From Rotaria socialis (Eukaryota), in assembly GCA_905331295.1 (NCBI GenBank), contig CAJNYD010000173.1, forward strand, positions 1 to 57,252: DNA of 57,252 nucleotides. The letters are read 5' to 3'. The notes beneath the pieces were generated by a model. The model was not told where the DNA came from. It saw only the letters and a list, made by a program, of their open reading frames with translations, and made no database searches. A program made the position numbers and the translations under genes. Positions within the stretch are counted from its first letter, which is position 1. Each line of letters opens with the position of its first letter. Of the stretch, positions 1 to 56,813 are shown one piece after another.

Positions 1-1122
1 TCTGAGAAAAAAAGTTTTTTTTTGAAAACTCCCTGTACTCCCCCTCAGGGATGGTCTGATCAAAAATGACAATTTTTTCGATAACTCAACCATTTCTTGA
101 CGGATCCTTTTCATCTTCGAACTCGACCTAGATATTGACAAGAGAATTCTGTGCATAAAATTTCAGCTCAATCGAATGTAATTGTGAAGAGTTATCGAAT
201 AAACGGCCGGACACACTGACCGATTCTATAGTGTACTCTTTTTTTTCTCACTTGTATCATTTCATATTCATCAACATGTCGATATGCTAACAGTTCGTTG
301 GCCTACGCAGGGTAAAGACCATGTGATAGAGGATATCGATGGCGACTCAGATCGAACCTGAGACGAACTGAAGTAATTTTTAAAAATTTTTCATAAATTG
401 TACGAAACGCGTTCCTGGTGAAACATTCGAAGCGTTCAGACACGTTTTTATTTCAAAACGTGTTTGTCCTTGATTTTGCAAACAGCCGCGTCTGAGTGAG
501 ATTTTACCTCCAACCGCGTTTAAACGCTTCGTTTGTTTCACTGGGGACGCGTTTAGACGCGTTGCCTTTGTGCGTTTCGCACGCAAATGCAACGTGTTTC
601 AGACGCATTTCGAGGCAAAAAATATTTGCATGAGAAGGGTTTAAATATTTTTATCAATCTATACGACTATTCAATTAATCATTAATATATCGATGATAAA
701 ATGTAACTGATTATTGTCAGCAATAGGATTAATTAATTCATGAACTAAATGAAACGATCCGAGTTTACTGCAAGCGTAAGTTTTTGTTCTCCTTATTTTA
801 TTATGGCTTTCTTCGGTAACAGTTGATTCTTTTTAAACAAATACATTCTTCAGACATAATGTTATGATATAGTGATTCATTTTTCTCTCTTCACCTTTGC
901 TTAATTTTTCCTTTTTTTCTTTTTTTTCTCTTCCTTTTTCTACACGCGGTTTCTACCAACAATATTTGGAAAATTCCAACACATCATATTATTTATATTT
1001 GCAGGCAAGTACCTTTCAGTTTTATTGTTTGTAGTCATTTTTATCCAATGACACAGAAATATTTCGAACTTTTGCATAAACAGTTCACATTGATCCTTTT
1101 TTAGAAAATTTTCTATTCAATA

Positions 1123-2058
1123 ATGACGTTTCCTGCACGCTTTCAAACAGACTCAGACTTGCTAACTGCTGCATTTTCAGCAATTATGGGTTTAGATCTG
1201 AGTACAAATGTTTCCAATTCTGATCATGTAGAGAAGGTTTCTCTGTTTGATCATCATAAAACAACATATTCATATGGTCGCGTTGGTAACACCCATGCTA
1301 CTTCAACAGCGGCAAATCAATGTTTATTATTTATTAAGATGCTGGGTGATGTAACAATTGAATGTGAAGTAAAGACAAATGCTACGATTCAAGAAATTAA
1401 AGCACGCATTTATGAATTGGAAGGAATATCACCTGATAAACAACGTCTTATATTTGGCGGAAAGCAGTTAGAGGACGGTAAAACTATGTCTGAATATGGC
1501 ATGTCCTTGGAACCTACACTTCATCTCGTAGCAAGATTACATGATACCAACCCAGTTATTCTGGATCCATCAACCTTAGATCCAATACATAATTATGACT
1601 TTACGAATATAAACGATGGTCAAAATACATTTATACGAGGTGGTGCGAGATATATTCGTCCTTGTGGGTTCAAACGATTTGCACTCAACGTATCCGATAA
1701 ATTTGAAAATTTGCAATGGCTAGGATGTAATGATAGTGAGGGTGAATGGCCTGTTTCATATCATGGAACTAGTGCTCATAATAATAAAACAATTGCGCAG
1801 GATGGGTATGCTTTAACACAAGAAAGACAATTGGCATTTACTCGTGGCGTCTATTCGACTCCAGATATACAGCTAGCGACAAAATACGCAAAAAGATTTA
1901 CCTATAACAATGAGCAGTATCTAGTTGTCTTTCAAAATCGTGTGAATCCTGCAAATGTAGTAAAATTTAAATCTGTTTCGCCAGGAACTGAAGACTATTG
2001 GGTTAGTCCAAGCGACACAGATGTGCGTCCATATGGTATTTGTATTCGAAAAGTATAA
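1123..2058 (+). CDS. Ubiquitin-like domain + C-terminal ADP-ribosyltransferase-fold (NEURL4/PARP-like, H-Y clade) protein, 311 aa, intronless CDS
   Basis: Residues ~68-140 are ubiquitin-like (LFIKML...[39 protein letters not shown]...TLHLVARL) but lack the terminal GG. The C-terminal part has [25 protein letters not shown] and VRPYGICI motifs typical of NEURL4-like ART folds. Confidence 0.75.
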
Positions 2059-2378
2059 AATGAAACTGTTTATTGGCAAAGAAAAGATGAACGATATGAT
2101 ACTATCTAGTGTAGAATTCAAATCAAATAAATATTGAGTGAGACAATAATACAGAGTCTATGGGGTATTCCATTTCAAACTGAATTCAAAACGAAGAAAG
2201 TCACCTCCAATTTTCAGAACTATCAGGGTTTAGGGAGTCCGAATCAAACACAACACTGTTGTCACCGAATTCACAGAAGCGACCTTCGTCCCGTAATAAA
2301 CTGCCTATATTATTTGCACTTCACAACAAGACAAACCCTAACTAGGCAAAAAAACACTATTTCACTTGAATTCTGAAT

Positions 2379-2432
2379 TGGGGTGCGGGGGTTTGTATAG
2401 CGACGAGGCGCACCCACACCCTCACACCCTCA
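2379..2432. repeat. Telomere-like inverted site A: GGGGTGCGGGGG-spacer-CACCCACACCCTCACACCCTCA
   Basis: G-rich arm, ~20-nt unique spacer, C-rich arm; read directly. Confidence 0.7.
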
Positions 2433-3749
2433 AGATATTCATTGTTTAGTTTATTTGAAAAATACAATATAAATTCTTTTCATTTAAAAAGAGCAAAAAC
2501 AAATGCCGTGAACATGAGCCATGGAATTTGATTAATTAAATCTGACAATATGACTATTATAAAAGCCACCATCAACAAATAAGGAATCAGTTTGTCGGTA
2601 ACACTTTTTAATGCGGTGTGAAGCACACTGTTCATGTAGTTCGTCGCGAGTTTTCTTTTTTACTTACTCGACGTATGTATCTAACAAGTCACTTTGTGAG
2701 CTGATGATCTCGACATTCGAGAAGCTGCAATTTTTTGAAAAGAGCTAACTTCGAGATAATTAAAATGAATATTCCAAGAAAAGATAGGCGCGAATCTTTT
2801 TTTCTTCAATATAAAACACTGTGAACGCAGCTGATTATAGATAATGACTAATCTATCATGTCTGACTTTTTCAATTGCTTTTTTTTGTTGAAAATAGCTC
2901 TTTCAGGAAAACGTGATTTTTGGATTTCTGCGAACCAAAAAAGCTTATTTGTCTAAAGCGATAATATCGTTTTGAGTTCAAAAATAGATCAAACCTATGT
3001 TACAAGTAATTATTTCAACGATTTTAGTTTTATAAAGTTTTGTGGCATAATAAAAATATCAAATAATGATTGGTGTGATAAGTAGGCATATGTATTGTTA
3101 TGAATCGTCAATCTTCTTTTATAAATTACAACAAATTTTCTCTTTATATGAAAGCGTTTCTATGAAAAAAGAACCTGAGATCAATCACTTAATATCTATC
3201 TCTCATATTTATAGCCAATAACGAAAGATTTCAGTAGTCAGTTTACGTGCTTACACTTATTAAGATATTTTTCTTTTATCTTGGCTGATCAAACTTCAGC
3301 AATCTCAAGACATGTACTAATTATTGAATTAGTTCTGTGAAAAGATGAACCGAATGCTACATAAGATAAAGAATTTCAAAAGCTTTAATTTATCTAACCT
3401 AAAAAAATTTCAAATAATATCATGCCATTCTAAAAGGATTTATTACACTTATAAATGATCTAAACTTGGCTTAGTGGTGACTAATCAATGATATGTAAAA
3501 TCTTCTTCGACAAATACATATTGTAAAACGAAGATCATGTCGTGTTCTCAAATAACAAGAACTTTGATATGAGATGTTCTCATATTTCGTCCTTAACGAG
3601 CATCTAGCAAATAAGTGAACCCACAAGGTTTTGAGGAAACTTTTTTCATTTCACGATAGAATGCTCTCTTAGCTACATATCTTGTGAAGAAATTCATTGA
3701 TTTTCCTGATCCATTCGCCCTCACTGCCTTGACGTGTTAAAATTAATGA

Positions 3750-3837
3750 AGGGTATGGGTGTGGATCTCTTGATTGCGACATTCATACCCCACACACGAA
3801 CAATGGAAACATTCACACGTGCGCATTCATACCCTCA
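3750..3837. repeat. Telomere-like inverted site B (degenerate): GGGTATGGGTGTGG...ATACCCCACACAC...CATACCCTCA
   Basis: Degenerate G-rich then C-rich arms; read directly. Confidence 0.55.
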
Positions 3838-4054: not shown

Positions 4055-6125
4055 TTAAAAGTCAATCACTAATTTGGCGTTTTTCTTCGCAGTTTCCATC
4101 ATATGTTGTGTGGCTTCATCGATTCCATTGTTGCTGAGTGAGAGTGCGGTGAGTGTCTGTGAGAAAAAAACGTAGAGAAAATACAAAAGATGAAGAGAGC
4201 AGGATATTCACTGTGTTATTTTGTAAAGCATCAGCAAGATATTGGGCCCCTTCATTTCCGATTTTACATCCATATAAGTAGAGTTGACTGAGTGTCTGTA
4301 TGAAAAAGCAAAAATGGATATGATAAAGATGAAAAGAGGCAGATATTCACTGTGTTTTCCCGTAATGCATCAGCGAGATATTGGGCTCCTTCGCTTCCGA
4401 TTTCATTTCCATAGAGATTGAGATCAATAAGCGCCTGTTTGAAAAAAGGGACGAGACAAATGCGAGAGATAAACAAAGAAAAATGTTTACAGTGTTACGT
4501 CTTAAAGCATCAGCTAGTTGTTGAGTCCCTGTGGCTACGATCGAATTATATGAGAGGTCGAGCGTGGTTAAAGTCTGTGTGAAAAAGTAAACATGAAAAT
4601 GATAAAGATAGAAAAAGGAAAGTAGTTCACCTTGCTATTCCGTAAAATATCAGCTAGACCTTGAACCGCTTTGTCTCCGAGTAAATCATACGATAGATCA
4701 AGTTGGGCGAGGGTCTGGATGAAATGGTGAAGATGTAAATGAGAGGCACGAAGAGAGAACGTTGTTCACCTTATTATTTCGTAAAGCATCAACTACATGC
4801 TGAGCTCCTTCGACTCCAATTCGATTGGCACGAAGGTGAAAATTTGTGAGCGTCTATGTGACAAAAAAACGATGATAAACATGAAAGATATGAATGAAGA
4901 GAAAGGTTAACTGTATTATTGCGTAAAGCATTAGCCAGGTCTTGAGCTCGTCCTTCGCTTTCGATTTCGTTTTTCCAGAGATCGAGTTCGCTGAGTGTCT
5001 GTTAGAGGACAAGAAAATGGAAATGCGAAAGATAAAGAAATAAAGTCTTCTACAGTGTTATTTCGTATAATATTAGCTATATCTTCAGCCGCTTTATCGC
5101 CGATATCTACACCGCCGATTATCAGTGTTTCAAGTGTCTGTGTGATCAAATCAAGATATAAACGAGAAAAACGAAAAGAAAAGGAGACTTGCCGTATTAT
5201 TTCGCAAAGCATCGGTTAGAGACTGAACACCTTCGTCTTCAATTGTATTGCTCACGAAGCTGAGCCTGGTAAGTGTCTATTTGGAAAAATGAAGATAGAA
5301 ATAAGAGAAAGGAAGAGACAAGGAGACCTACAGTGTTATTTCGTAGAGCGTCAGCCAAATGTTGAGCGCCTTCGTTCTGAAATTCACTGTTTGTGAGTTT
5401 AAGTGTAGTGAGTGCCTACAAGAAAAGCAAAGATGGAAATGTGAATAATGAAGAAAACAAGAGGTTCACTTTGTTATTTCGTAAAATTTGAAACAGATGT
5501 TGGGCCACTTTGTCTCCGATTTCCATACCACTGAGCTGGAGTGTGCTAAGTGTCTGCATAATAGAGTGAAAGATAGGAATGAGAAAGATGAAGAGAAGAA
5601 GAGGTCTACCGTGTTATTTTGTAAAGTATCAGCCAGATATTGAACATTTTCTGCACCGATTTCATTGCCACTGAAGCTGAATGTGGCGAGCGTCTGTATG
5701 AACAAGTAAAAACATAAGTTGGAGGTATAAAGATGGGAAGAGATTCACTGTATTGTTTTGTAAAGCGTCAATCAAATGCTTCATCCCTGCATCTCTCATT
5801 GTATTACCAGAGAGACCGAGTTCGGTGAGCGTCTGTATGAAAATATTAAGATAGGTAATATAGCTAATTATATGAGAAGTATGAAGGAAAAAATTAATTC
5901 ACTGTGTTATTTCCTAAAGCGTCAGCTAGGTGTTTTGCCGCTTCGTCCGTGATTGTATTGTACATCAGGTTAATTTTGCTGAGTTTCTGTTTGAAAAAGT
6001 GAAGAGAGATATGAGAATTATGAAGAGAAGAAGAGATTCACTCTGTTATTTTGAAAAGCATCAGCAAGGTGTTTACCAGCGTCGTTGCCTATTTGACTTG
6101 ACATGAGTGTGACGTCGATGAGTAT
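4055..6125 (-). CDS. RI-like (NLRC3/LRR_6-type) leucine-rich-repeat protein, one 28-aa LRR per exon; 5' end unresolved (possible first exon ~6176-6303)
   Basis: Phase-0 exons 6042-6125, 5903-5986, 5749-5832, 5610-5693, 5470-5553, 5332-5415, 5193-5276, 5054-5137, 4912-4998 (87 nt), 4770-4853, 4631-4714, 4491-4574, 4351-4434, 4212-4295, plus terminal exon 4055-4156 ending in TAA. Each reads TLxxLxLxxNxIGxxGAxxLAxALxNNT with no stops. All introns are GT-AG except one GC-AG. Confidence 0.88.
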
Positions 6126-6850
6126 CTGTGTGAAAAAGTAAATATAGAAATGTGAGAAATGCATATAGGTAACACTTGGGTAATGATGAAACAAAGGAGC
6201 TGGCAATGGTACAATGCGCTGAATGGACAACAACTCTTGTGTAGGCGTGGAGTATTTTCGTCTTCGTGAGTTTTCATATACTGAACTATCATGGAAAGTA
6301 TCATTTTTGGCCAACTGATTGCCCACAAAACATAAAGCAATGCCTATTAAATTTCTGACCTGTATCTAATGTGGATTTTTTCTGCAAAATTTCTTTCAAC
6401 TAGTTAAAAATAGCTTTTAAAAGAGTTTTTGATGAATGAAATTGAAACGAACATAAAAAGTTATTCAATCTTCGCATAGCCTCAAAATACGAAGGCATTT
6501 TTATCTTACTTTTAAAATTCTAGATAAATGTTTTAAATTGTGGTCATAATTCAAAGAAGATTTTGTATGCATATATACCTCCAGTGTTGCCGATGCCAAA
6601 ACTCACTGCGTGGCAAGAATGAATTTAGTTGTGATTTATGTTATGCTAACTAACACGTACAGTTACTAAGTTATCTTCCTGTCAGATTCTTATTAGAATA
6701 TTGGTCTTATTGACTAAAAACAGTTGACTAAATCCTAGTCCCATGGTTCAAAAACATTCACTGTAACGCGTATCAAAAATGACATTACAAGATAGTAGGT
6801 CATACAGATGTGTTAAATTTTATATTTTCTTCTTCTCAATATTCAAAATT

Positions 6851-9516: not shown

Positions 9517-10969
9517 CCTTAATAGAAGCCAGAAAATAACTCATCTAGTTGACCATAGTATTTTGTTTATTTGCCAAATATCAATTACTGTCCCTCTTAT
9601 CGATGCTTTCTTTCACTCTAACTTCACTAACAGGTGAATACATATATTTACATTTCACGGTTGTTTTGCTTATTCATCACAAAAAAACCATTACTTCGAG
9701 CGAAGGCCATCACGTTCTGAAGGGAAAAAAGTATCGAATACTACAATATTAAGAAGGCCGGCTACGAATTATCAAAGAAACACATCATACTAGATCCGCA
9801 CGACGAATATTTTTCTTGGTGCGACTTTACAAAATCGATAATAAGCAAAAAACTATTACGTGTTTGATGAAAAAAAGCAAGAAATATCATCCTTTGTAAT
9901 AAAAAGGTCAATTTTTTCACGCATGCCAATACAAGAAATATTATTAATTGATATTTCGGTTTTGTTGAAATAATTGTAGTTCCGTGACACCATTAACTGT
10001 TTTTGATGCGATTCAAATGAAAAAGAAAGTCATTTTCTATAATGAAACGATCGTTATATTTAATATATTTTAAAGCAATGTTTGATATTTGACATTTTTA
10101 TGTTCTCAAAATTATATCTCCACGAGAGTCAATATGTGAAACTGATTACAGACCAAAATTGTTACTTTTTTATGATCTAAGACATTTCTAGAGTTTTTAA
10201 CTGGAGTTTTCGAAAGCCATACTAGCTCTGATAAGTTTATAAAATCTGTATCCATTTTTAATTAAAAATAATTGACATATTTAAGTTGATGAGATATGTT
10301 ATGAAAAAAGTAGGATAGAGAATGTTGTTTTACAATCGATTAAATATAGAATTCTTGTATTTACAAAGGTTTCTTTTAAATTTTTAACCAGGGAATCTTC
10401 GATCTTACACGAACACTTTCAAGTATAAACCATGACTTTCATCCATTTTACTTCAATTGAAGATCTTCACTATGCATCGCTCAATTCAATATATACGTAT
10501 TGTACAGAAAAGAGTTTTGCGAACTATAAAACAGTAAGTTTTGAAAAATATTGAATTTTCGAGTTGGTATGAATGGACAAATCTAGAATACTAAACTATT
10601 CAGTTAGTATCACTTATTCAATATATGCTAAAATTCACATGTTAGAGAACGTCGATAACTCATAGTTTGCGATTGAAATACGATAGCCATCTGTAGTTTT
10701 TACTAATAGAATAAAGAAATTGTCATAAGAACTAGTTAACTCAGTATATACTATTTATTTTGATATAATTCTTTTTTTATTATAAGCATGAATTAGCACT
10801 ATGATTATGACAGTTCTAACGAAACAGTACAATGAATGAGTAAGAAATGGCTGGAAAAAAACAAACAAGTAAAACAGGGAAAAGAGCGAAAAACGTTTAT
10901 TCTCTGCCTCTCTCTTATACTTTTTCTTTTCTTTTTGTTATTGTAAACTTGGAAATGTATTTTTTCGAA

Positions 10970-10986
10970 GGGTGGGTGTGGGTGTG
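10970..10986. repeat. One-sided telomere-like tract C (GGGTGGGTGTGGGTGTG)
   Basis: Direct reading; no clear C-rich partner. Confidence 0.55.
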
Positions 10987-12427
10987 AATGAATAGATGTA
11001 TTTCGAACACATAATGCGAAAAAAAACTAGTTCATCATTGATTGTTGAAGATGATTGCAGATATTCATACCGCTGGATAGTTGTTGCAAAAATTTCACTA
11101 TTGAAATTTTTTTATTAAACAACCAAGAACGGATGTAGCAATGTTCAACAGAATTGATACCGATAGAGTTTTTTAATGCTCTACTCTTTGTTAAAATTTA
11201 ATTCATATATTGAGAAATTCAAAGTTTTGCAAGTTGCAAGATTTTGTTTTACAGATATTTGATTTTTCGCTTTTCCTCCTTGTCAGATTTGTCCTGAACA
11301 CTTGTACGATACTATAGAGAAATTTACCAAATATCAAACATCACCATCTTTTTCATTTTTCACGTTCTTTCTTTTGAAGAGCATCTTTCATAAAATATTG
11401 TTCACAGACTCGCTTGAGTCCTTCATGTACCGTCTTCCATTCTATAACAACTTATCACCCCACTGAAACGTGATGAATTTTCAGTCATATCACATCTCCG
11501 GGCACGATAACAAAATGCAAACGAGCGTTTTATAAATTAATGATAACTTCGGTCATTTGAAAAGCTGATAGCAATACCCAATTCTATAGGGACGACCTCA
11601 TATACCATAAATAATGTATCAAAAATGCCTTAGTTTCAACGTTCAAGCCTAGCAATAGAAACGATCACTCACGAAAAAAATTCCGTCACGCCTACAGTAA
11701 AACCTCTCGTTCCGGCCTCATTCTCATTCTTTCAGATACCGCCCATTAAATAGTAGTACGACGTTAGACATAATAATCGTATATTCAAAAAAAGTTGTGC
11801 ACCGCACGCTACCCGCCATGAATTGTCAACAGCATTTTTCACACAAAGCCTAGCTTTATTCTCATTGATTTCTATATTCTCTGATTTGGGACTCACATGC
11901 AATTTAAGTAGAATTATTCGTGCTGTGTAGATGAAATGCATTTTTGACCTGAACTACATTTTTCCGCTCAAATTATTCCTTTATTGCACCGATCAATTCT
12001 TTGTCTAATCCTTTGATGATAACATGGAAACAAACGTTGGTATAAAGAAAAACAGAAAAAATTGACAACTTTAATATAATTCTTCTCGTAAAGTTCATGG
12101 AAATCGATATTGAAACAAATATTTTTTTTGTGTGGCTGAAAATAAATCCTGTAGTGAATTCGATAGATGTTGTCTGCATATTGACGCTTTATTTTTGTAG
12201 AGAACTTCAAAAACAAGGTACGTTTTGAAAAGCCAGGCATCTGAATAGAAACATGCAATACGCGCAAAATCTGTTAGAAAAGTATCATTCGATTGTTTAA
12301 AAACTTATGTCTTCAAGATCACACAAAAATCTAAATACAATTTTGTATTCTGATGTTTTGATTTTGAAAATTTTGACTTAAAACTAATAAAACTGACTGC
12401 ATTAAAAAGTATACTCAATACTAAAAA

Positions 12428-12482
12428 GTGTGTGTGGGTGTGGGTGTGGCTTAAGAGAGGACCCACGCCCACATCCACCCTC
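12428..12482. repeat. Telomere-like inverted site D: GTGTGTGTGGGTGTGGGTGTGG-CTTAAGAGAGG-ACCCACGCCCACATCCACCCTC
   Basis: Direct reading; abuts the 5' end of the TPR fragment. Confidence 0.8.
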
Positions 12483-12991
12483 AAGATTATCTTTAATTCA
12501 TACGACAAGAAACAGAAGAACTGAGTGTTTCTATTGCATTTAGTAGATTATTATGTGATTTGAGCGAGTACGATAAATCACAGAAATATTTTTGGAACAA
12601 TTATTAAATGATTTGCAAAATGAAGATCATCCTTGGATCGAATATAATATTGATCGAATTCTTGCTTACAAGGGTGAATGGGATGAGGCTCGAAAAATAT
12701 TATGATCGTGCATATGATCGAGTGGCGAAAACTGAACCACCGCGAGCCAAGAATTCTTCTTTGGTCCTCCAAAATATTGGCGTTATTCTCTACCAACAAG
12801 TAAAATACGACGAAGTTCTCGAGTATTACCTAACAGCATTGAAAATAAAGAAGGGATTTTATCCATCTGGCCATAAAAATATTGCTACGAGCCTGAACGC
12901 CATTGGCAATGTTTTCCAAAAACAAAGAAAGTTCGATAAAGTTCTCGCTTATTATCCGAGAGCATTAAAAATTCAACAATAATTTTATCGA
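12483..12991 (+). pseudogene. Truncated, frameshifted fragment of an ART-TPR family gene (TPR region only)
   Basis: Aligns by eye to the gene at 13391-15313 from ~14619 onward (e.g. CAAGAAACAGAAGA, TATTATGATCGTGCATATGATCGA). It has an early in-frame TAA, +1 insertions at TATTTTTGG and CGAAAAATAT, and no start codon or ART domain. Confidence 0.85.
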
Positions 12992-13026
12992 TGGGTGTGG
13001 GTAAGAATAAATCTCCACCCACACCC
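12992..13026. repeat. Telomere-like inverted site E: TGGGTGTGGGT-AAGAATAAATCT-CCACCCACACCC
   Basis: Direct reading; abuts the 3' end of the TPR fragment. Confidence 0.8.
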
Positions 13027-13390
13027 TTTTGATTATCTGAAAGAATGATTACAACAAGAAAAACAAATTTAATCAGCTGCAAATAGATTTCTAAACGTGT
13101 TTTTTCTCAGTTACATTCAATTTAAGAAGTGTCTTACAAAAAGTTTTCGTAGTCAACTTATCTCTATGATACGTCTTTTGATTTCACTTGAGAGACTCTG
13201 TTTACTCGGTAAAAGAAACTAGACTTTGTTATCAGCAAAGAAAAAAAGATACAGAATAAAACTCACCCAACAATAATCTATTTAACTAAAACAAAAAAGA
13301 CACATTCAGAGATTTCAACACTAGATATCTCTTGTTTTTATTCTAAGTTACAATTGCAGCGGCGAGGAAATTTTCTCGTAGTAAGTAATT

Positions 13391-15313
13391 ATGGTAGAAG
13401 CACTTGTAGAAGCATCACCGAAGAAAAATAGATTAAAAGAGAGTATATCATTGCGTCAATTATCTTCAAGAACAGATGACAATGATAATAAAGAAAGTAC
13501 AACTCTTATTTGGTTTGATCCTAACATTGGATCACATGAAGATACAAAAAATACGAAACAACAACTTCGACTTATCAACGATTTTGTTATTTTCATGACT
13601 GATCTTGATCATTGTGTTTCATTTATTCAATCGATTAACAAAGAAAAGATCTTCTTAATTACATCTGGGTCAAAAGCATCACTACTTCTATCACGAATTT
13701 CTTCTTGTCAACAAATTGATTCAGTTTTCATTTTTTGTATACAACAAGAACGATATGAATATTTACTAAATGAATACTCGAAAATCATCGGTGTTTATGT
13801 TGATCTGGATGATTTATGTCAATCAATTAAGAAGCAAGTTGATTTAGTGAATAAACAAATTCAAACATTTTCTTTTTTTGATCAAAAAGAAAAATCAACA
13901 AAAGACTTATCCAAAGAATCTGCATCGTTTCTTTGGTTTCAATTGTTTAATTATGTCATTGCGCGTCTTCCAAGAAATCAACAAGCAAAGCAACAAATGA
14001 TCGACATCTGCAAAGATTATTATCGTGGAAACAAAAGAGAGATGAGAGCAATCGAAGAATTCGAAGAAACCTATCGGCCTGAAGTTGCTATAAACTGGTA
14101 TTCGAAAGAGTCATTTGTCTACAAGTTAATCAATAAAGCATTGCGAACAGAAGATATTGATCTTCTTTACAAGTTTCGTTTTTTCATTGGCGATCTTTCG
14201 AAAAATCTTCAACAAGCACATGAAAAACTTTTATCATCAAAAGAAAAAATTGTCAATGTTTATCGTGGAGTTCAACTCGGGAAAGCAGAGTTTGAGAAAT
14301 TGAAACAAAACCAAGGAAAACTGATTTCAACCAACGGGTATTTATCAACGAGCCGAAGAAAATCGTCAGCAGTACGTTTCTCAAGAGTACCAAATAGGAG
14401 AATGGATGTAGTACCTATTCTTTTTCATATCCAATGTGATATTGAACACATTAATAAGAATATTATTTTTGCTGACATTAGCCAATTCAGTGAATTTCCA
14501 GAAGAACAAGAAGTTTTATTCGACATGAATGCTTGTTTTCTTATCGAGTCGATTCAAGAAAAGGATTCATTGCAAATCATCAAGATGAATCTTTCAAATG
14601 AAGGATACAAAATTACAAAAGATTATCTTAAATTAACACGCCAAGAAACAGAAGAGCTGAGTGCTTCTATTGTGTTTGGTAGATTATTACATCATTTAGG
14701 TGATTATGATAAATCACAAAAATATTTTGAGCAATTGCTGAACGATTCAGAAAATGAAGATCGTGCTTGGATTGAATTTAATCTTGGGCGAGCTGCTTAC
14801 TCTAAAGGTGAATGGGGTGAAGCTCGAAAATATTATGATCGTGCATATGATCGAATGATGAAAAGTGAACCGCCACGAACCAAAGATTCTGCTTGGGTTC
14901 TCAATGATATTGGTAATGTCCTCTATACACAACAAAAGTACGATGAAGCCCTCGATTATCATCAACGAGCATTGATAATCCGAGAGAAATTTCATGCATC
15001 TGACCATGGAGATACGGCTACGAGCCTAAACAACATTGGTAATACTCTCGGTGCACAAGGAAAGTACGGTGAAGCCCTTGATTATCATCATAGAGCATTG
15101 AAAATTCGAGAGAAATTTCATCCATCAGGTCATACCTATATTGCTGTGAGTCTGAATAATATTGGCCTTTGTTATGAACATCAGAACAAGCAAAGCATGG
15201 CACTTGAATACTATCGCCGTTCATTGAGTATATATGAGAAGTTTCTTCCTGCTGACCATCCACAAATACAGAGAGCACAAAAGAATATTGATCGACTTTT
15301 TGGAAAAAACTGA
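13391..15313 (+). CDS. ADP-ribosyltransferase (R-S-E clade) + TPR repeat protein, 640 aa, intronless
   Basis: N-terminal LIWFDPN...IFLITSG domain. ART motifs WYSKESFVYKLINKALR, VYRG, GYLSTS and EEQEVLF. About 5 kinesin-light-chain-like TPRs (ATSLNNIG...EALDYHHRALKIREK). Confidence 0.9.
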   Translation: MVEALVEASPKKNRLKESISLRQLSSRTDDNDNKESTTLIWFDPNIGSHEDTKNTKQQLRLINDFVIFMTDLDHCVSFIQSINKEKIFLITSGSKASLLLSRISSCQQIDSVFIFCIQQERYEYLLNEYSKIIGVYVDLDDLCQSIKKQVDLVNKQIQTFSFFDQKEKSTKDLSKESASFLWFQLFNYVIARLPRNQQAKQQMIDICKDYYRGNKREMRAIEEFEETYRPEVAINWYSKESFVYKLINKALRTEDIDLLYKFRFFIGDLSKNLQQAHEKLLSSKEKIVNVYRGVQLGKAEFEKLKQNQGKLISTNGYLSTSRRKSSAVRFSRVPNRRMDVVPILFHIQCDIEHINKNIIFADISQFSEFPEEQEVLFDMNACFLIESIQEKDSLQIIKMNLSNEGYKITKDYLKLTRQETEELSASIVFGRLLHHLGDYDKSQKYFEQLLNDSENEDRAWIEFNLGRAAYSKGEWGEARKYYDRAYDRMMKSEPPRTKDSAWVLNDIGNVLYTQQKYDEALDYHQRALIIREKFHASDHGDTATSLNNIGNTLGAQGKYGEALDYHHRALKIREKFHPSGHTYIAVSLNNIGLCYEHQNKQSMALEYYRRSLSIYEKFLPADHPQIQRAQKNIDRLFGKN

Positions 15314-20100: not shown

Positions 20101-22387
20101 ATGGGGCAATATATAACAACTCATGCTTTTTATCATTCATATACCGATGAACCACATGCCACACGTCGAAAAGAAATGCTTCGTAAGCTAATCGGATTTA
20201 GTTTAAAAGACGTCTATTTACCTAATCTTGTTATTTAGAAAAATATCCTGAAATAAAACAACTAATGGGACCCGATTGGCGTATGGCAATACAAGTTGTT
20301 ATATCTGTAATAATACAAATAACTGTGGGAATACTTCTCAAAGATGCATCTTGGTCAACATTACTTTTTGTTGCTTACGTTGTTGGTGGTACAATAAATC
20401 ATACATTGTCATTAGCTTTACATGAATTAACGCATAATTTAGCATTTGGTCATTCATGGCCAATATCTAATCGTCTATTAGGTTTTTTTGCTAATATTCC
20501 ATTAGGTGTACCAGCATCGATTACATTTAAAAAATATCATCTTGATCATCATAGGTAAACATAATAAAAAAAACAAAGTTCATTTTTTTTTGTGTTATCT
20601 GATAATATTCTTTAGATTTCAAGGTGACGAAGTATATGATACGGATATTCCAACACGTCTTGAAGTGTTTTTATTTTCATCACGTATAGGAAAATTTTTC
20701 TTCTTAATCATAATGCCATTTCTTTATTCTTTACGACCTGTATTCGTTTTTCCAAAACCAATACACGTATTGGAATTAGTTAACATTATGATTATGATAG
20801 TATTTAATGGAATAATGTACTATTATTTTGGTCATAAAACAGCATCATATTTCGTTCTGGGTACTATACTCGGCCTTTCGATTCATCCTATTTCGGGACA
20901 TTTCATTGCTGAACATTATGTCTTCAAAGAAGGATTTGAAACTTATTCATATTATGGACCATTAAATGCTATTACCTATAATGTTGGATATCATAACGAA
21001 CGTAAAGAAATTACTGGATAATTTAGTTTAATTTTCATGTCAATCGTCTTTGTTTAGATCATGATTTTCCATATATCGCGGGTAGAAATCTACCTAAAGT
21101 ACGCAAAATTGCTCCTGAATATTATGATAATCTTCCATCTTACACAAGGTAAGTGTTTACTCAATGAAGTTGAAAAAGAAAAAACTCATTTCAAGACATT
21201 TATTCTCTTTGTTTGCAAGAGAATGAATATCAGAATTTTGAGTTTATCTGTGATCAATGAGCTTAAAGAGGACTTTCGTCATTTTGTGACTGTAAGTTTT
21301 GGTTGGTTGTGGTCTAAATATGCTTTCAACTAACTGCTAACAGCTAAATATATTCTCAGATTTGATAGAATCTCACTAATTTGTTTTATAGATATTAAAA
21401 AACATAAAGCACAATTTAGCTATGTTTGCCAAATTTTGAATCACTTCATTTCTCACGTAATTTTATGTCGAATCAAGCTGTTACTGATTATTGACAAAAT
21501 ATCTACTGTTATGAGAGGGTCTTAGTTACACGGCTCGAGGGATTAGGAAAGGTTAAATTTTAACCTTTTCGATATCTATCTGTTAAAAGCATTTAGAAAT
21601 AAGTAACATTTACTCGCCTGATAAAGATTTGTATAACACGAAAATTTTCACATGGATTATTCAGTCGACGAATTGAGAACGAAGGTGTCATGTTTTACTC
21701 TCCCTAGGTTATATGCAGTTAGGAAAAGCATCGATTGAAATTCGTTCCCTCGGGATTTTTGTATTATGTAAAGCTTTTCCCAACTTATAGTTACCTGCGT
21801 AAAACTTAGTCACCCATTTTGCTTTTCCAAACCTGGAAATCCCAATGATGATTCAAGCTTCAAGAATTGAAAATGAAAATTTTGCTTAATTGAATGTCAC
21901 ATACTAACATAGATATCTATTAACCATTGAAAGACCGTAGATAGATGATACCCAGGTTGAAAAATCTGACACAATATCTTGAAATACGAGCGAAATCTTA
22001 CAAGAATCTGACAAAAAATCGTAGTTATACGATCTTTCAAGAATCTGATTGTATGAATTGACCTCAAATCTCAGGAACTACGATTTTTTGTCAGATTTTC
22101 GTATGATCGTGCAAGATCTTATCAGATCTTACAATATGATTGTTCGACCTGGGTATTCTTCTTTTTTTCAAATTTGATTAAAACTATTTTAAAACAGATG
22201 TCTTACTATTTTTTAATTATTGTCTAGTTGGGTTAAAGTACTCTACGATTTTGTCATGAATGATAATGTTGGTCCTTGGGCACGTGTAGTTCGACCTACA
22301 AAACTCGGCGTTGAACCAGTCGTAAGCCAACAAGAATATGAACAAAAATTGAAAACAATTGTGAAAGAAGCTCACAAGCGTGATTAA
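20101..22387 (+). CDS. DEGS1: Sphingolipid delta(4)-desaturase, paralog 1 (5 exons)
   Basis: [20 protein letters not shown]; His boxes HELTH, HLDHH, HNEHH; exons 20101-20182, 20239-20554, 20616-21001, 21058-21148, 22228-22387. Confidence 0.93.
21951..22153. mobile_element. MITE in the last intron of desaturase paralog 1
   Basis: Ends CCCAGG...CCTGGG flanked by TA on both sides; internal inverted repeat AATCTGACAAAAAATCGTAGTT / AACTACGATTTTTTGTCAGATT. Confidence 0.75.
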
Positions 22388-23527: not shown

Positions 23528-25091
23528 TTATTCAGTTTTTGGATGATCTCCATTCGTGTTGACTGTCGATGTTTGTTCGATATTTGAAGATGTTCCTGTT
23601 TGTTTTTTACCCGAATGCTTTTTAACATAAAGTAATTTTCTTTCTTCTTTCGATAGGTGTGGCAATGAATGAGTATTGTTGTTATTGTCGATAACATCAT
23701 GAAGGACTTCGTTTACTTTCGATTTGTTTTTTAAGTCAATAGCATTATTTAATTTTAATGCATCTGAACGTACTGAACGACGAATACGAGATTGTGGTCC
23801 TAATCGTGGATCAACTATAAAATTGTATAGCACTCGAATCCATGAATAGTGACATGGCAAATTATCGTAATAGTCCGGAGCAATTTTCTTCAACTATTAA
23901 AATAAAAAAAAGCAAAGAGATTAATTGAGAATAATCATCGAAATGCTTACTTTTGGTAATGCATAACCAGGAATATTAGGAAAATCATGATCTATAAACA
24001 AACGAAGAAATTATTGCGAATCGAAATTCATATAAAAGAATATTCGTACGTTCATTATGATAACCAACATTATATGTCAAATAATTTAGTGGCCCATAGT
24101 ACGAATAAGTTTCATAGCCTTCGACAAATGTATAGTGTTCTAGAAGAAAGAAAAAAAAACGAAGAGAATGAAATATTAAGATTATAATATAAAAGTAATT
24201 AATCTAACCAGATAAAAAGTGTCCAGATATTGGATGAAAACCAAGGCCAAGTACAGTACCAAAAAATAAATAAACCAATGATTTATATCCCAGAAAGTAA
24301 AAAATAGTTGCATCAAAAATCAATTCAATAACAAGATTGATTGCTTCAAGTAATGTTACTGGCTTTGGTACACGAAGAAGTGGTCGTACAGAATAGAGTA
24401 TTGGTTGTGCGACAATATAGAAAAATTTACCAATAGGCGATCGAAACAGCCATACTTCAAAATATGTTGGTAGATCTGGATCTAGTAAATCATCGCCTTG
24501 AAATCTAATGGGAAAACATATTTTCTCTGAATTGAAATTTACGAAATTTACTTGTGATGATCGATGTGATATTTTTTAAATGTAACAGATGACGGAATAC
24601 ACAATGGTAAATTAGCTATATATCCAAGTATTCGATTAGCCGTAGGTTTAAGATTACCAAAAGCTAAGTTATGACCAACTAAAAGAAGAAGAAGAAGAAG
24701 AAAAGCAATTATGTTAGAGTACTCTTGTTTTTATTTTCTCCTAATTATTTCATACTTTCATGAAAGCTAATCGAAAGTGAATGATTAAGTGTACCACTAA
24801 TGATATATGTTAACAGCCATACATATTTCCAGTCTAGATCTCGAACTAGAATGGCCATTATGATCTGAATAAATACAGTGACAACAACTTGAGCAGCAAT
24901 ACGCCAATCATGTCCCATAAGTTGTTTGATTTGGGGATATTTTTCTATAAAAAAAAACAAAAAAACAAACGAATATTATTCAAAATAAGACTTGCAAATG
25001 AATACATACGTAGCATTTCTCTTCGACGGGTTGTATGTGGCTCATCGTTATATACCCAGTGAAAGTCGGAATGAGTTAGACTACCACCCAT
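23528..25091 (-). CDS. Sphingolipid delta(4)-desaturase/C4-hydroxylase family, paralog 2 (multi-exon)
   Basis: [58 protein letters not shown] and [10 protein letters not shown] motifs; extended low-complexity C-terminus. Confidence 0.92.
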
Positions 25092-28000
25092 AACAATAAT
25101 AGAATTTAGATAAGTTACAAAAACTAAAACTAAAATGAAAAAGAGATATAAAATTGGCAAATATTTATTTGAATTAAATGATTCATTATGTGTACACAGT
25201 AAGTAAAGATAACTCCTATCTTATATTCATTTCAGACGCACTACGATCTTGTAATTCATATGATAAAAAAAATTTCTATCTTAACGACCCAATATCACAA
25301 TTTTTTTTCTTTCTAATCACATTTGGCTACTCATGCACAAAAGAAAAAGAGAGAAAAAACACTCGTCTGTCCGACAGGTTCATTCAACTGGAACAGAGGG
25401 CATCTTTCTATAAATGCATTTTGTTATAATAAGGTATGCAAGAAAAAGTTACTAGAGGCTTCTGTTACGAAATTAAAGACGGAATATTCTTAATCATGCA
25501 ATAGTTGTGGGTGGGGTGCAATCGATTTGAAGAGACTTTTTCAAACAAAAAAAAAGAAAAAAAATCAACTTCACTTTGCCCTTTATATCAATAAAATAAT
25601 AGGGCTCGACCGTTTGTTGCTTTATTACATCCTCCGTTTTTTTTCTTCTATTAAAGATGAAGAACATAAAAGACTGTGCCATCCTATGCGCTTTTTTTCT
25701 TTCTTTCCTCTAAAATGCTTCAGTAAGTCATGTCTATTACAATGGCTTTCATGTAAAAATTAAAAAACTCAGTCCATGCATTTTTTTAACCTTTACATAC
25801 ATTTCAAAGCCTGTTGAGCTTTATGTCATTTGCATACTTTTTCTAAATCCTTCATTATGCGTAACTCAACATACACGACCTATAATCCGACTCGATTTTT
25901 TTATTCAAAAAAGAAAAATAATATATCGTCGGTAAAATCGTATTACTAATATTATAAAGGAAAGGTTCACTCACATATTTATATATGTATCTCAATAGTG
26001 TAAAGGAATGACGCATCGTATTGACCGCATTCTATAGTATGAATCAGGATAAATGCCTTATCTCTCTCTATCGCTAGCAAGATTCTCATTTGCTTTTTAT
26101 AAGACTCGTAATCTTTATCGTCGTTGCCTTGTTGTTGTTTGACTATTCCGTTACACATTATACAACTTTTGTTACCTGATACAATTTGGCAAAACAAGAG
26201 AGAGAGAGAAAGTCAAACTCGAGTCATAAAATGGCGACAACTCAAAATTATATCTATATATATATATATATATATCTTTTTTTTTCCTTTCCTTTTTTTT
26301 CTTCTTTACTTTGTTTAGTGTCGTTCGTGACGAACATTATGGTTACATGTCGTCATGACAAATGTTGATTGTTTAACTATGGTTTCTATTTGTCATCCCT
26401 AGTAGTTGATGACAACTAACGGGCATCACTTAGTTTTGCATATTGTTTTCTTTTTACATCAGAACGAAGAAGACGAAGAAGAAAAAAGAAGCGCAAAAAA
26501 GGACAGAAAAACAAATGTATACCAAGGACAGTTCTGTCGGAGCGTGTATCATCGCATATTCAAGGCGATGAACTGGCTAATAAATCATCACAGCTGTTAG
26601 ATACTTGTCAAAAGGAAGACGAAAAAATAGATACTAAACGGTTTATCAATATATTTCTTTCATTAATGCGACAGCTCGCATCAAAAACACTGTAATAGCG
26701 TCAGACCATTTTGATCTTTCTTTGTTTTCTTTTCTATTTCAGACACACAAAACCAAATGTATTCGTCAGATATTATTTATCTAAATCGTTCTAATTGAAA
26801 TATGATTATATTTTTGAATATTTGTGTCTGATCGAAGATAAACGAATAAATTACGCACATGATACATGCATAAAGTGTACGTCAATATTTGTAGTTTTAA
26901 AAGAAGTCATTTGCGTTCTGCAGGTAAATATATGCTCAGCAAATCAGTATACGTAGTATGTAACCGATTGATAATGTTTCAAATTCGATATACAGTCACT
27001 AGCAACAGGAAGCATTAGTAAAATAAATTACGTACATGATGAGTAATTCTTTTTCTTTTCGATTGGTGTTACTCATTGATTTTTTTATGAAGTATTACGA
27101 AGTGAGCTGGATACACTTTTATTTTGTGAAGGATTGTTTTTTCATTGATTTCAATGCGATTGGATAGGCTACGCTGAGGTGATCATAAGCAGATAGTTTC
27201 GATTTTGAATTGATGATTGTCAAGGTCAACAACGGATGCTGTTTTGTGTAGGCAAGCGATGAAAGAGAAACACCGAACTTTTGGAGTTTCACTGGAAGAG
27301 AATAATAATTTCTTTAAATCAATAGCTAGTTCAAATAGAAAAACAAGACTAGGATTTGATTCATTAGTAAGTACGTATGAATCGAGTTTTTTTTTCTAGA
27401 GGCACGAGTAAATTTCAATGCTGCTGATGTTGTAAACTACTATCAAACCCTCAATAAGCGCCAAAGTATTTATATTTTATCGTGATTGTAAACCTAGTTG
27501 AGATTTACAACTTTAGATAAATGAAAATGCTGTGGCAGAATTGTAATCCTTCAAATTACCCGTTTACTATCTTCAAGGTTTTGTTCTCAGTATTAATTCT
27601 ATAAAAGAAAAACTAATATTAACATCCTCGGCCATCGTTATTGAGCGTCAACAGAACAATAAACCTCTTCACATAAATTTCACTAAAATATAATTTCTAC
27701 CAAAAAAATCCTTTTGATCTTATTTATATTTGAACGTTCTTTGAGCCTATTGAGAGCCGAGAAAATTTTCTCGATTCTACTTCTTTATCGAATATGATGC
27801 AATGTTTTTAGAGTATGCTCAAATAGGTAACAAGTTAAGTGCAATTGCAGTTTAAAATTTGACGTGGAAGAAAAATATTAACTTATATGCATGAATGCTA
27901 ACGTTTCAGCCAAAAATAACTCTAATTTCCATGGAGCATATGCATTCATGATTAACAAATCAAGTTTGAGCCAGTAATAACAACAGCACTTCACTCGTAT

Positions 28001-31295: not shown

Positions 31296-31364
31296 GAGTG
31301 TGGGTGTGAGTGTGGCAAGGTGGTTTTACTTTTCTCTTTATCCACACCCACACCCACACCCCAC
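31296..31364. repeat. Telomere-like inverted site F: GAGTGTGGGTGTGAGTGTGG-spacer-CCACACCCACACCCACACCCCAC
   Basis: Direct reading. Confidence 0.8.
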
Positions 31365-31699: not shown

Positions 31700-32124
31700 C
31701 AATACTTGTAACAAAAATAAAAAAAATAGGGGTAGCGATGGAATGAATGAAACAAAGTATCTAGTCAAGAATAATGATGGTTCTCTTGCTGATTTCATAC
31801 ATCCAGACGAGAAAGATACAATCAGCCGAGGTAAAGCTAAAATAACCAATAATATAGAATTAATAATCAGATTTTTATGTTTAAGAAACTGTTCCTGTAA
31901 ACTCTTTGCATACGATTATTTTTTTTATGCACTGTTTCCCGTTTCTCAGCAATACAAAGAATGATACCAACAGTTGAGATAAGTTTAAGCCCGAACGGAA
32001 CAATGAAATGAAAAATATTGATGAATAAATTGTAGTTTTCAATACTTGATGTTAACCGAATCAAGCAGCATGTTCGTTTTACTTCTTCATCATTAATCAG
32101 GCCTCGATAAATAGGATCGTGCAC
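31700..32124 (-). pseudogene. 5'-truncated, frameshifted fragment of a rhodopsin-like GPCR (ECL2 to TM7 region); 3' boundary approximate
   Basis: HDPIYRGLINDEEVKRTCC..INIFHFIVPF.. then, after a frameshift near the poly-A at ~31920, LQEQFLKHKNLII..LVILALPRLIVSFSSGCMKSAREP..YFVSFIPS. I recognise this as resembling the C-terminus of rotifer-expanded GPCRs. Confidence 0.75.
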
Positions 32125-32125
32125 A

Positions 32126-32165
32126 GGGTGCGGATCCCAAGCGAAGACCCGCACCCACACCCTCA
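32126..32165. repeat. Telomere-like inverted site G: GGGTGCGG-ATCCCAAGCGAAG-ACCCGCACCCACACCCTCA
   Basis: Direct reading; coincides with the truncation point of the GPCR fragment. Confidence 0.75.
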
Positions 32166-35826: not shown

Positions 35827-36739
35827 TTATTTGACAAAACAATCTTTGCCAGCAGCGCAAATACAGTTGTTGAGATCAAGATGAATACGATTTTGCCAAC
35901 CAAGCTGACGAATTAAGTGAAGAATCCACGTGGCACAAAATTCGCCTACTTCTTTACGATCTTTCGATGCAAGAGCAGGTTTCGCGTGCTCATCAACTAA
36001 GCCTGTTAATAAATAGGTCACATAGTTAGGACAAAAATTTTCACGACATGCTTCAGCTTCGTCATTGCTGCTCACTGAGCCACAACTTGTTTGACAAGTA
36101 TCAAGATAGAGTTCTTGACGGTCGTTCATTGACGGTGCTGCCATACTACTAATAACTAAAGAAGAAGAAGAAGAAGAAATACGTTACATAGATTTGGGTG
36201 TGGGTGCGGGTACTCGGGGTGATGCCTGAGTTGTATACCTTGGGGTGTGAGTGTGGTTGTAGGGGTATAAATGTATTCATATGTCGCATATATCGGAACG
36301 TTAAAGTAAAACTAAATCTATTCCTAGATTTAGTTTTAGTTTAACTTTTTCTTTCCTCCATTTATATTCGAACTCGAATTAGACAGCTACTCGTCTATAA
36401 AGATTCCTTTGACAAAAGAAAAAAAATCGGATGTATGATAAATGTAAAAGGCCATTTCTTTTTCCGTTTGTCAATATCGTAATAATGAGCTTATTCACCA
36501 GAGAATTTTATTCGCGTTCAAGACAAATAACAATTTTCTCAATGGTTTGTTAACAGATCAAGATGACGAGTTAACCGATGGAAGTAGTTATGAATGAAAA
36601 TGTTATTAGGAATCATTTAACGGAAATCATTCGTACGCGAACAAAAGAAACAACTAATCGCCGGAAAACGGAAAGGCTCTAAAAACATTTGTTTGTACTT
36701 ACCAAACATGCCCAAAATAAGAAGACTAATTGGAACCAT
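35827..36739 (-). CDS. Small secreted cysteine-rich protein (~121 aa, 2 exons), unknown family
   Basis: Exon 1 36703-36739 (MVPISLLILGMF, donor GTAAGT) splices in frame to exon 2 35827-36155, giving a signal peptide and a mature region with 8 Cys. Confidence 0.75.
36195..36266. repeat. Telomere-like site H, two G-rich tracts in the same orientation, intronic
   Basis: TGGGTGTGGGTGCGGGT ... TGGGGTGTGAGTGTGGTTGTAGGGGT. Confidence 0.65.
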
Positions 36740-54983: not shown

Positions 54984-55069
54984 GTGCGTGTGGGTGTGAA
55001 TCGAGCTCTGAGTCATGAATAGAGTGTACATCAACACAAGCCGCACCCACAAACCCACACCCACACCCC
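54984..55069. repeat. Telomere-like inverted site I: GTGCGTGTGGGTGTG-spacer-CCGCACCCACAAACCCACACCCACACCCC
   Basis: Direct reading. Confidence 0.78.
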
Positions 55070-55327
55070 AAATGAAAAAATGATGAATCATTTATCGAAG
55101 CAGTTGGAAGACAATTCGCTATATAGAATGATAATTTTGAATGAAGATCGTTAAAACATGATACTTCATTTAAACTAAATAACTAATAAAACTATCAAAC
55201 ATTCATAAAGGAAAAATAACATCAAATTCTCTCGTGTATATATTTATGTTTCACTATTTTCTTTATCTTACGAGGAAACATTCTCAACTGTGAGTCACTG
55301 ATTGAAGTGATATTTTGATCATATATA

Positions 55328-56221: not shown

Positions 56222-56389
56222 TAGATCTTATGATCTTCAGAATATTCTGAAAGTGTTTTAATCAAAACGGAAGAAACATGTTCATGTCACAAAAATGGAA
56301 TTTTCTTCAGCATTCAACATTTCAAAAAGAAACCATCAATCCTGATTGAGACTTTCAGGATGTTCTAAAGATCATAAGATCTATATATG
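56222..56389. mobile_element. Small palindromic MITE interrupted by the larger element
   Basis: TAGATCTTATGATCTTCAGAATATTCTGAAAGT / ACTTTCAGGATGTTCTAAAGATCATAAGATCTATATATGA. Confidence 0.7.
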
Positions 56390-56768: not shown

Positions 56769-56813
56769 GTGTGGGTGAGGTTGTAGGTCTCTGCTTGCCT
56801 ATCACCCAAACCC
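56769..56813. repeat. Telomere-like inverted site J (degenerate): GTGTGGGTGAGGTTGTAGG-spacer-ATCACCCAAACCC
   Basis: Direct reading. Confidence 0.55.

What the first reader, a model, noticed from the sequence alone, without database searches (positions are those of the whole stretch)
12428..13026. TPR gene fragment bounded exactly by telomere-like scars at both ends
Seen: similarity to the ART-TPR family begins at the first base after site D (ACCCTC|AAGATTATC, matching ~14619). It ends at the last base before site E (..TTTTATCGA|TGGGTGTGGG, compare TTTCATCCAT in the intact gene). The 509-bp piece is diverged from the neighbour, so it may derive from another paralog. Inference: either a loose DNA fragment was patched in with a telomeric-repeat linker at each junction, or a tandem paralog was trimmed by two healed breaks. 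The first reading would offer a mechanism for gene-fragment shuffling and perhaps foreign DNA capture in bdelloids.
Basis: partly seen in the sequence, partly recalled or inferred. Interest (0 to 1): 0.82.

Follow-up and report, generated by a model that had tools for sequence, protein, structure and literature searches.

The report
Telomere-stitched pseudogene piece in a rotifer
In a bdelloid rotifer, a 510-base piece of a dead gene sits between two short back-to-back runs of the bdelloid telomere repeat, likely scars where broken DNA ends received a few telomere repeats and were rejoined, and the piece is more likely a trimmed local duplicate than captured foreign DNA.

Summary
In this Rotaria socialis-type DNA, a decayed ART-TPR piece (12483-12992, 75% identical to the intact neighbour) lies between two G-arm/spacer/C-arm palindromes of (TGTGGG)n. 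A contig from another run spans both junctions. Identity drops from 26/30 to 8/30 at D and from 23/30 to 6/30 at E. A second pseudogene in the window (a GPCR) also starts exactly at such a palindrome.

Three corrections. (1) The first 5-6 'gene' bases at D (AAGATT) are also a recurring arm-start motif, ATCTTGAGGG (5 of 32 arm ends), so that junction is a microhomology. (2) Weak in-register family similarity persists left of D (p 0.002-0.11), and a second haplotype has about 110 other bases there. (3) Nothing supports capture from afar: no empty allele, no close donor, and origin from the neighbour's lineage is not rejected (AU p 0.65).

Best reading: break ends seeded with 2-4 telomere units, then joined head to head through unique filler, trimming a local paralog. 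Spacers form no family and there are no target duplications, which argues against a mobile element. The scan reported such palindromes before in other bdelloid genomes.

The parts
12428..12483 (.). Site D: G-arm 12428-12449 (GTGTGTGTGGGTGTGGGTGTGG), 13-nt spacer, C-arm 12463-12483 ending CCCTCA
12483..12488 (+). AAGATT overlap: matches the gene (neighbour 14619-14624) and the recurring arm-start motif (A)ATCTTGAGGG on the other strand; 5-6 nt microhomology
12429..12435 (.). Haplotype difference: a second allele has about 110 other bases in place of these 7 (bubble contig 305 vs 202 nt); its letters were not shown
   Evidence: tables 5 and 8 (runs X1, X6, X8; a matching partial contig in X3)
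12483..12992 (+). ART-TPR pseudogene piece, equal to residues about 410-577 of the neighbour (linker plus TPR repeats, no ART domain); two frameshifts, in-frame stops
12992..13026 (.). Site E: G-arm 12992-13002, 12-nt spacer, C-arm 13015-13026; T12992 shared with the gene
12340..12427 (+). Left flank with weak, unresolved in-register resemblance to family residues about 391-410
13391..15313 (+). Intact 640-aa ART-TPR neighbour; identical to an R. socialis protein apart from a 13-residue repeat in that record; orthologue in R. magnacalcarata
31736..32124 (-). Second case: 5'-truncated 7TM GPCR pseudogene starting at residue 515 of 680 (P0149) or 134 of 314 (P0148); no upstream part anywhere in the window
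32125..32164 (.). Palindrome abutting the GPCR truncation point
2380..2436 (.). Palindrome ending in the same CCCTCAAGAT motif as D
3751..3797 (.). Further, degenerate palindrome of the same type
31298..31364 (.). Further palindrome of the same type
54986..55068 (.). Further palindrome of the same type
56769..56812 (.). Further, degenerate palindrome of the same type
10970..10986 (+). Lone G-arm (half site); others at 25504-25518 and 36193-36260

Best explanation
The 510-bp piece is a decayed ART-TPR coding fragment between two head-to-head telomere-repeat palindromes, and it is likely the remnant of an old local duplicate cut at two breaks, whose DNA ends each likely received 2-4 telomere units before being rejoined. 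Shown: the piece, its sharp ends, the head-to-head polarity, unique 11-41 nt spacers, no target duplication, and presence on both haplotypes. Inferred step 1: a telomerase-type reverse transcriptase added the units to each 3' end, primed on 1-6 nt of microhomology (AAGAT at D, T at E). Inferred step 2: two seeded ends were ligated nose to nose by end joining with filler, and the DNA between the breaks was lost (at least 1.2 kb with the ART domain at D, the last TPRs at E). Inferred step 3: the piece carries C-arm and G-arm in the orientation of a capped linear molecule, so the same scars result from two separate healed deletions or from local shattering and re-stitching. The palindromes are read as repair by-products with no function of their own.
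For: Both ends lie inside a reading frame conserved across the family, so the palindromes must have arisen at these places. Of 129 tblastn hits starting left of 12520, 80 start at 12479-12482 and only 6 further left. Of 576 ending right of 12950, 492 end by 12994. A profile from 87 family members finds nothing else of the family in the window besides piece and neighbour. Independent case: the GPCR pseudogene begins at 32124, next to a palindrome; chance per end is about 0.002. Polarity: G-then-C 6, C-then-G 0 in the window. The 17 spacers form no family (best pair p 0.59) and flanking direct repeats are 0-4 nt, as in random sites. ATCTTGA precedes the first GGG at 5 of 32 arm ends and 5 of the 8 that end in TGA (binomial 3e-10; about 4e-8 by my arithmetic after dropping the defining case), and at D the gene itself supplies these bases. 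Local origin: adjacency and orientation, AU p 0.645, no close donor or empty allele among listed contigs. Telomeric repeats were seen at fresh deletion breakpoints in A. vaga (PMC13564844, passages).
Against: No pre-break allele or orthologous intact locus was seen, so the breaks are inferred. Weak in-register similarity left of D (p 0.002-0.11; 9 of 400 null sites as good in a gapped extension) could mean D is an insertion into a longer pseudogene. 84 of 576 tblastn hits run on past E to 13009-13066, though anchored tests show no continuation there. The neighbour ranks only 18th of 128 by BLAST score (59% vs 62-63% for paralogs of other Rotaria species), and free trees do not pair it with the piece. 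For the other 8 sites, 86 nearby ORFs gave only two weak Pfam hits, so I cannot show they are junctions. The GPCR's 3' end is not at a palindrome (3 of 4 mapped pseudogene ends are). Mean spacer similarity is slightly above shuffles (4.85 vs 4.62, p 0.016). The enzyme is not identified. The 9 metagenome loci used for the motif count were picked by eye and are not verified as bdelloid.
Confidence: 0.55

Rival explanations
1. A loose fragment from a paralog elsewhere was capped at both ends and patched into a break. The chemistry is the same but the origin differs.
For: Arms on the piece point outward as on a capped linear molecule. Paralogs from other Rotaria species match slightly better than the neighbour. 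No other remnant of the gene is detectable by profile search.
Against: Landing about 400 bp upstream of a same-subfamily gene in the same orientation is unlikely for a piece from afar (inference). No empty allele: depth over 13062-13350 comes from one contig in each of 4 runs, and the 12449-to-13016 joint has only short sides, so it is another palindrome elsewhere. No donor at >=80% along the piece among listed contigs. The sequence is native, not foreign.
Confidence: 0.15
2. D is a telomeric insertion at a break repaired in place (as for vertebrate short ITSs) inside a longer pseudogene whose upstream part has decayed or been replaced; only E is a deletion junction.
For: LKLIKLTA aligns in exact register with family LQIIKMNL (0 to 3 of 1500 null sites as good at 15-20 codons; shuffles p 0.002-0.007). 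AAG flanks D on both sides. Gapped identity is 16-17/30 for three blocks left of D vs 10-14/30 right of E.
Against: The score is negative (-8.6 vs about +38 expected) in a region strongly conserved in the family. Neutral decay should be equal on both sides. A 3-nt repeat is expected at about half of random sites. The second haplotype has about 110 other bases at exactly this edge. Several correlated tests were tried.
Confidence: 0.17
3. The palindromes are a tiny mobile foldback element (MITE-like with ATCTTGAGGG terminal repeats, or abortive copies of an Athena/Terminon 3' end) that inserted in genes and later bounded deletions.
For: Shared end motif. An 18-nt degenerate arm tail shared by window 56769 and L088. 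Six to nine contigs per run match over D at >=80%. Athena elements carry reverse-complement telomeric stretches used for priming (PMC8557442, passages).
Against: The motif is never at both ends of one element (0 of 17). Spacers and arm lengths differ. No TSD. No hammerhead or other RNA family near the sites (1 weak Rfam match, E 0.21). An Athena-type enzyme as the seeding agent remains possible and is not separable from telomerase here.
Confidence: 0.1
4. Chance microsatellites, regulatory CACCC-type boxes, or an assembly artefact.
For: Sites sit between intact genes, and the pattern also occurs in many non-rotifer contigs.
Against: 11 clusters vs 0.07 expected. Contigs bridge both junctions. 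Three mid-ORF truncations abut them.
Confidence: 0.03

Closest known systems
Short interstitial telomeric sequences and TERC-ITSs of vertebrates (PMC8537989, passages read; PMC2246262, listing only)
   Same: A few telomere units at internal break sites, with short microhomology, deletions and random filler typical of end joining; one Xenopus locus is head to head.
   Different: There, one tract is usually inserted into an otherwise collinear site with small changes. Here both ends appear seeded, head to head is the rule (6 vs 0), the two flanks are unrelated, and no telomerase-RNA fragment is identified.
Neotelomeres at deletion breakpoints in Adineta vaga (PMC13564844, passages and methods section 37 read)
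   Same: Same repeat (TGTGGG), added at broken ends in a bdelloid.
   Different: Those are described as transient caps on unrepaired ends. The paper passages I saw do not describe fixed head-to-head fusions with filler inside genes.
Fusion ITSs and inward telomere fusions, (TTAGGG)n-(CCCTAA)n (PMC8537989; PMC11293586, one passage read)
   Same: Head-to-head polarity.
   Different: Those join true chromosome ends. Here arms are 2-4 units, occur about every 5 kb among housekeeping genes, and carry a non-telomeric spacer.
Athena/Terminon endonuclease-deficient Penelope-like elements (PMC8557442 and PMC3846280, passages read)
   Same: Reverse transcription primed at exposed DNA ends, including breaks, using telomere-complementary RNA stretches.
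   Different: No pLTR, hammerhead, ORF or target duplication is seen. Penelope-mobilised host genes are framed by pLTRs and TSDs.

Membership tests
Short ITS from break repair | Few exact or near-exact units of the species' telomere repeat at an internal site | tested here: met
   TGTGGG is given as the A. vaga repeat, supported in other rotifers; the R. socialis terminal repeat was not checked directly
Short ITS from break repair | Empty orthologous or allelic site showing sudden appearance | tested here: inconclusive
   no empty allele in 4 runs; no outgroup DNA obtainable; mid-ORF position is indirect evidence
Short ITS from break repair | Microhomology at the junction, filler or deletion | tested here: met
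   AAGAT(T) at D, T at E, 12-13 nt spacers
TERC-ITS | Adjacent fragment matching the telomerase RNA | not testable with these tools
   no bdelloid telomerase RNA found in my search; spacers form no family
Telomere-telomere fusion ITS | Head-to-head polarity | tested here: met
   6 G-then-C, 0 C-then-G
Telomere-telomere fusion ITS | Joins former chromosome ends, with subtelomeric flanks | tested here: not met
   flanks are mid-ORF; the window holds Memo, sybindin, MetAP, DES, TIP49 and SOD genes
MITE / DNA transposon | Target-site duplication | tested here: not met
   0-4 nt at 15 sites, within the random distribution
MITE / DNA transposon | Matched terminal inverted repeats and shared interior | tested here: not met
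   end motif on one side only; best spacer pair p 0.59
Athena / Penelope-mobilised sequence | pLTR with hammerhead motif | tested here: not met
Bdelloid ART-TPR gene family (the piece itself) | Sequence membership | tested here: met
   Pfam TPR_12; falls in a 33-row clade (97/96) with the neighbour and Rotaria paralogs

The most novel reading that the evidence does not exclude
Bdelloids routinely repair internal breaks by seeding both ends with a few telomere units and fusing them head to head, tiling even gene-rich regions with thousands of datable scars. The recurring ATCTTGAGGG start records where the broken end paired with the RNA template. It predicts an RNA containing 5'-CACCCUCAAGAU(U)-3', a direct handle on the bdelloid telomerase (or Athena) template, and the same route would stitch in loose or foreign DNA.
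Probability: 0.3. Interest if true: 0.82.

Novelty: new variant of a known kind. Interest (0 to 1): 0.58.

Why it matters
How bdelloids rejoin broken chromosomes and take up foreign genes is an open question. Palindromes that sit at mapped truncation points give a sequence tag for counting, dating and comparing repair events across genomes already public. R. socialis is listed as non-desiccating (PMC7943196, passages), so the scars either predate loss of desiccation tolerance or do not need drying. The allelic difference at D suggests these sites still change. The conserved arm start gives a concrete query for the template RNA. This single piece does not by itself show gene-fragment shuffling from afar or foreign DNA capture.

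Tried and rejected
No whole genome is held, so the donor search and genome-wide enrichment test could not be run. No RNA holder was listed as such; the one possible RNA run laid (X9) says nothing on expression. Pattern scan of viral contigs: 71 loci, none recognised as rotifer. Relatives of the neighbour in viral contigs: 3 candidates, 0 confirmed. The motif AATCTTGAGGGTGTGGG in prokaryote genomes gave 37 hits, of the order chance gives by my arithmetic (about 70); not inspected.

Metagenome scan: 119 loci from 15 of 64 parts. 26 had flank GC under 0.39, and I kept 9 by eye for the palindrome table. The other 110 were dropped as GC-rich, perfect hairpins, TG microsatellites or apparently bacterial. 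Five ORFs from the kept loci had no Pfam match and none matched the ART-TPR or GPCR proteins.

My early idea that spacers form a family failed the formal test. The idea that the DNA after E is a second piece starting at the same residue (DYLKE..) is weak and post hoc: 4 of 500 null sites as good, DNA p 0.02-0.12; left open. The 12449-to-13016 joint is not an empty allele. Hammerhead search negative.

Literature: bdelloid + 'inverted telomeric repeats' 0 papers; a five-term search 0; two searches listed nothing describing these palindromes (listings only). PMC5850863 (Terminons) is not held. Gladyshev and Arkhipova 2007 and Gladyshev et al. 2008 were not read; from recall they mention short interspersed telomeric stretches near foreign genes, so prior description cannot be excluded. 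Supplements (fig. S25 of PMC13564844, fig. S10 of PMC8494291) were not seen and may bear on novelty.

Full report
Organism and setting. The intact gene at 13391-15313 encodes a 640-aa protein with ART and TPR domains. Its 90% cluster holds a Rotaria socialis protein identical apart from a 13-residue repeat, and R. magnacalcarata orthologues. The window is therefore bdelloid, most likely R. socialis, which is listed as non-desiccating (PMC7943196, passages). It carries conserved genes (Memo, sybindin, MetAP, two DES, TIP49, SOD), so it does not look like a chromosome end. No whole genome was available.

The observation. 12483-12992 aligns to 14619-15125 at 75.2%, with two frameshifts and stops. 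D (12428-12483) and E (12992-13026) each read G-arm, 12-13 nt spacer, C-arm of TGTGGG, the repeat reported for A. vaga telomeres. Identity in register falls from 26/30 to 8/30 at D and from 23/30 to 6/30 at E. With 147 fetched proteins, 80 of 129 left-hand hit starts are at 12479-12482 and 6 lie further left. 492 of 576 right-hand ends are at or before 12994 and 84 run on to 13009-13066. One weak hit (E 0.002) lay elsewhere in 10000-13390. A profile of 87 members finds only the piece and the neighbour. The window has 11 clusters of at least 10 exact telomeric bases against a mean of 0.07 in 30 simulations.

Not an artefact, and not a fresh insertion. One contig of X2 spans 12116-13913 with one difference. 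In X1, X3, X6 and X8 both haplotypes carry the start of the piece and merge into one contig from 12538. Depth over 13062-13350 comes from a single contig in each run, so no empty allele is present among contigs, which can drop rare variants. X1 may be the source sample. The second haplotype has a 305-nt bubble against 202 nt: about 110 unseen bases replace 12429-12435, at the outer edge of D's G-arm (joint listed in X1, X6, X8). The shorter allele has TGTGTGT there, which looks like re-seeding after a further deletion (inference).

A second case. A 7TM GPCR pseudogene on the minus strand starts at 32124, residue 515 of 680 of its best full-length relative, directly against the palindrome at 32125-32164. 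None of its upstream part is in the window. The chance that a given end lies within 2 bp of an arm edge is about 0.002. Its 3' match ends at 31736, not at a palindrome, so 3 of 4 mapped pseudogene ends abut one, two of them being the finding itself. For the 8 other sites, 86 nearby ORFs gave two weak Pfam hits only, so their status is untested.

Anatomy of the palindromes. I tabulated 8 from the window and 9 from AT-rich metagenome contigs picked by eye from 119; their taxon is unverified. Polarity in the window is G-then-C 6, C-then-G 0. Spacers are 11-41 nt and form no family (best pair p 0.59; mean 4.85 vs 4.62, p 0.016). This disagrees with one earlier scan note reporting a conserved linker, at least for this small set. 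Flanking direct repeats are 0-4 nt, as at random sites. One feature is conserved: ATCTTGA precedes the first GGG at 5 of 32 arm ends (D, 2380 site, L087, L134, L182), that is 5 of the 8 ends in TGA (binomial 3e-10; about 4e-8 after dropping the defining case, my arithmetic). It is never at both ends of one element. At D these bases are also the gene's own (neighbour CAAAAGATTATC).

Evidence against 'exactly'. Left of D, LKLIKLTA aligns in frame and in register with the family's LQIIKMNL. Against window sites p is at most 0.002 for 15-20 codons. Against shuffles p is 0.002-0.11 for protein and 0.02-0.07 for DNA. A gapped extension reaches only two residues (9 of 400 null sites as good), and the 20-codon score is -8.6 where the piece's own rate predicts about +38. 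I give this roughly one chance in four or five of being a real remnant. Right of E nothing continues (p > 0.7). A resemblance of the DNA after E to the piece's start is weak and post hoc.

Origin of the piece. The neighbour ranks 18th of 128 by BLAST (59% vs 62-63% for paralogs of other Rotaria). In a 71-row tree (rows kept from 128 by coverage, identity of at least 48% and removal of duplicates) the piece sits unresolved in a 33-row clade, while neighbour plus R. magnacalcarata orthologue form a pair at 100/100 on a 0.32 stem. In a 29-row subset, holding piece and neighbour together is not rejected (AU p 0.645) and scored 4.57 lnL higher than the free search. The split is therefore older than the two species, and the donor is undecided by trees. 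Position decides more: same subfamily, same strand, about 400 bp apart, with the neighbour giving the longest non-self matches listed in the runs (110 and 87 nt). That favours an old tandem duplicate or local shattering over capture from afar. Nothing here is foreign DNA.

Mechanism. Shown: mid-ORF junctions, head-to-head telomeric arms, microhomology, unique filler, no TSD. Inferred: both ends of a break are extended by 2-4 units, by telomerase or an Athena-type reverse transcriptase, and ligated nose to nose with filler, with loss of the DNA between breaks. Confidence is 0.55 for this with local origin, 0.15 for capture from elsewhere, 0.17 for D as an in-place insertion, 0.10 for a mobile foldback element and 0.03 for chance or artefact. 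The first two share the same chemistry.

Comparison with what is known. It works like vertebrate short ITSs and TERC-ITSs inserted at breaks with microhomology, deletion and filler (PMC8537989, passages). It extends the neotelomeres seen at A. vaga deletion breakpoints (PMC13564844, passages and section 37). Polarity matches inward fusions (PMC11293586, one passage), but flanks are not chromosome ends. It fails MITE tests and shows no Athena or Penelope hallmarks. My searches found no paper describing these palindromes, but key subscription papers and supplements were not seen. Eight earlier scan notes report the same palindromes in other bdelloid genomes; they are leads, not support. What this locus adds is gene-level mapping of three junctions, the microhomology with a conserved arm start, and an allelic difference. 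Verdict: new variant of a known kind, interest 0.58.

Noticed in passing
window 10969-10973: One X3 contig has 39 other bases in place of GGG just outside this lone G-arm, and X8 contigs break here; possibly a second polymorphic site like D, but side lengths were not shown.
   Followed up: no
window 2154-2191: A 38-bp motif repeated many times in the genome (7-13 contigs per DNA run begin there); one X8 contig links it to a D-like G-arm.
   Followed up: no
window 11520-12020: Contig depth about 3-6 times background in three runs, so a dispersed repeat lies about 400 bp upstream of D.
   Followed up: no
window 13027-13075: DNA after E weakly resembles the start of the piece (DYLKE*LQQE; best of all profile positions is residue 411); post hoc, p 0.008-0.12.
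   Followed up: yes
window 56769-56786 and L088:285-305: An identical 18-nt degenerate arm tail, GTGGGTGAGGTTGTAGGT, in the window and a metagenome contig; may reflect a shared template.
   Followed up: no
window 20139-21105 and 23944-25053: Two sphingolipid desaturase paralogs in inverted orientation, 63-72% identical.
   Followed up: no
window 56858-57161; 55317-55526 with 56022-56235: A 304-bp foldback (83%) and a 214-bp inverted pair (89%), possibly MITE-like.
   Followed up: no
window 4119-6155: Minus-strand gene with roughly 139-bp repeat units, apparently leucine-rich repeat exons (label from recall; no Pfam hit).
   Followed up: no
window 1105-2058: Single-ORF ubiquitin-like domain protein with an unannotated C-terminal part; transcript-like contig with a poly(A)-like loose end at 2147 in X9.
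   Followed up: no
L095:185-1024: A 280-codon ORF runs through the palindrome at 211-257 of this metagenome locus; no Pfam match.
   Followed up: partly
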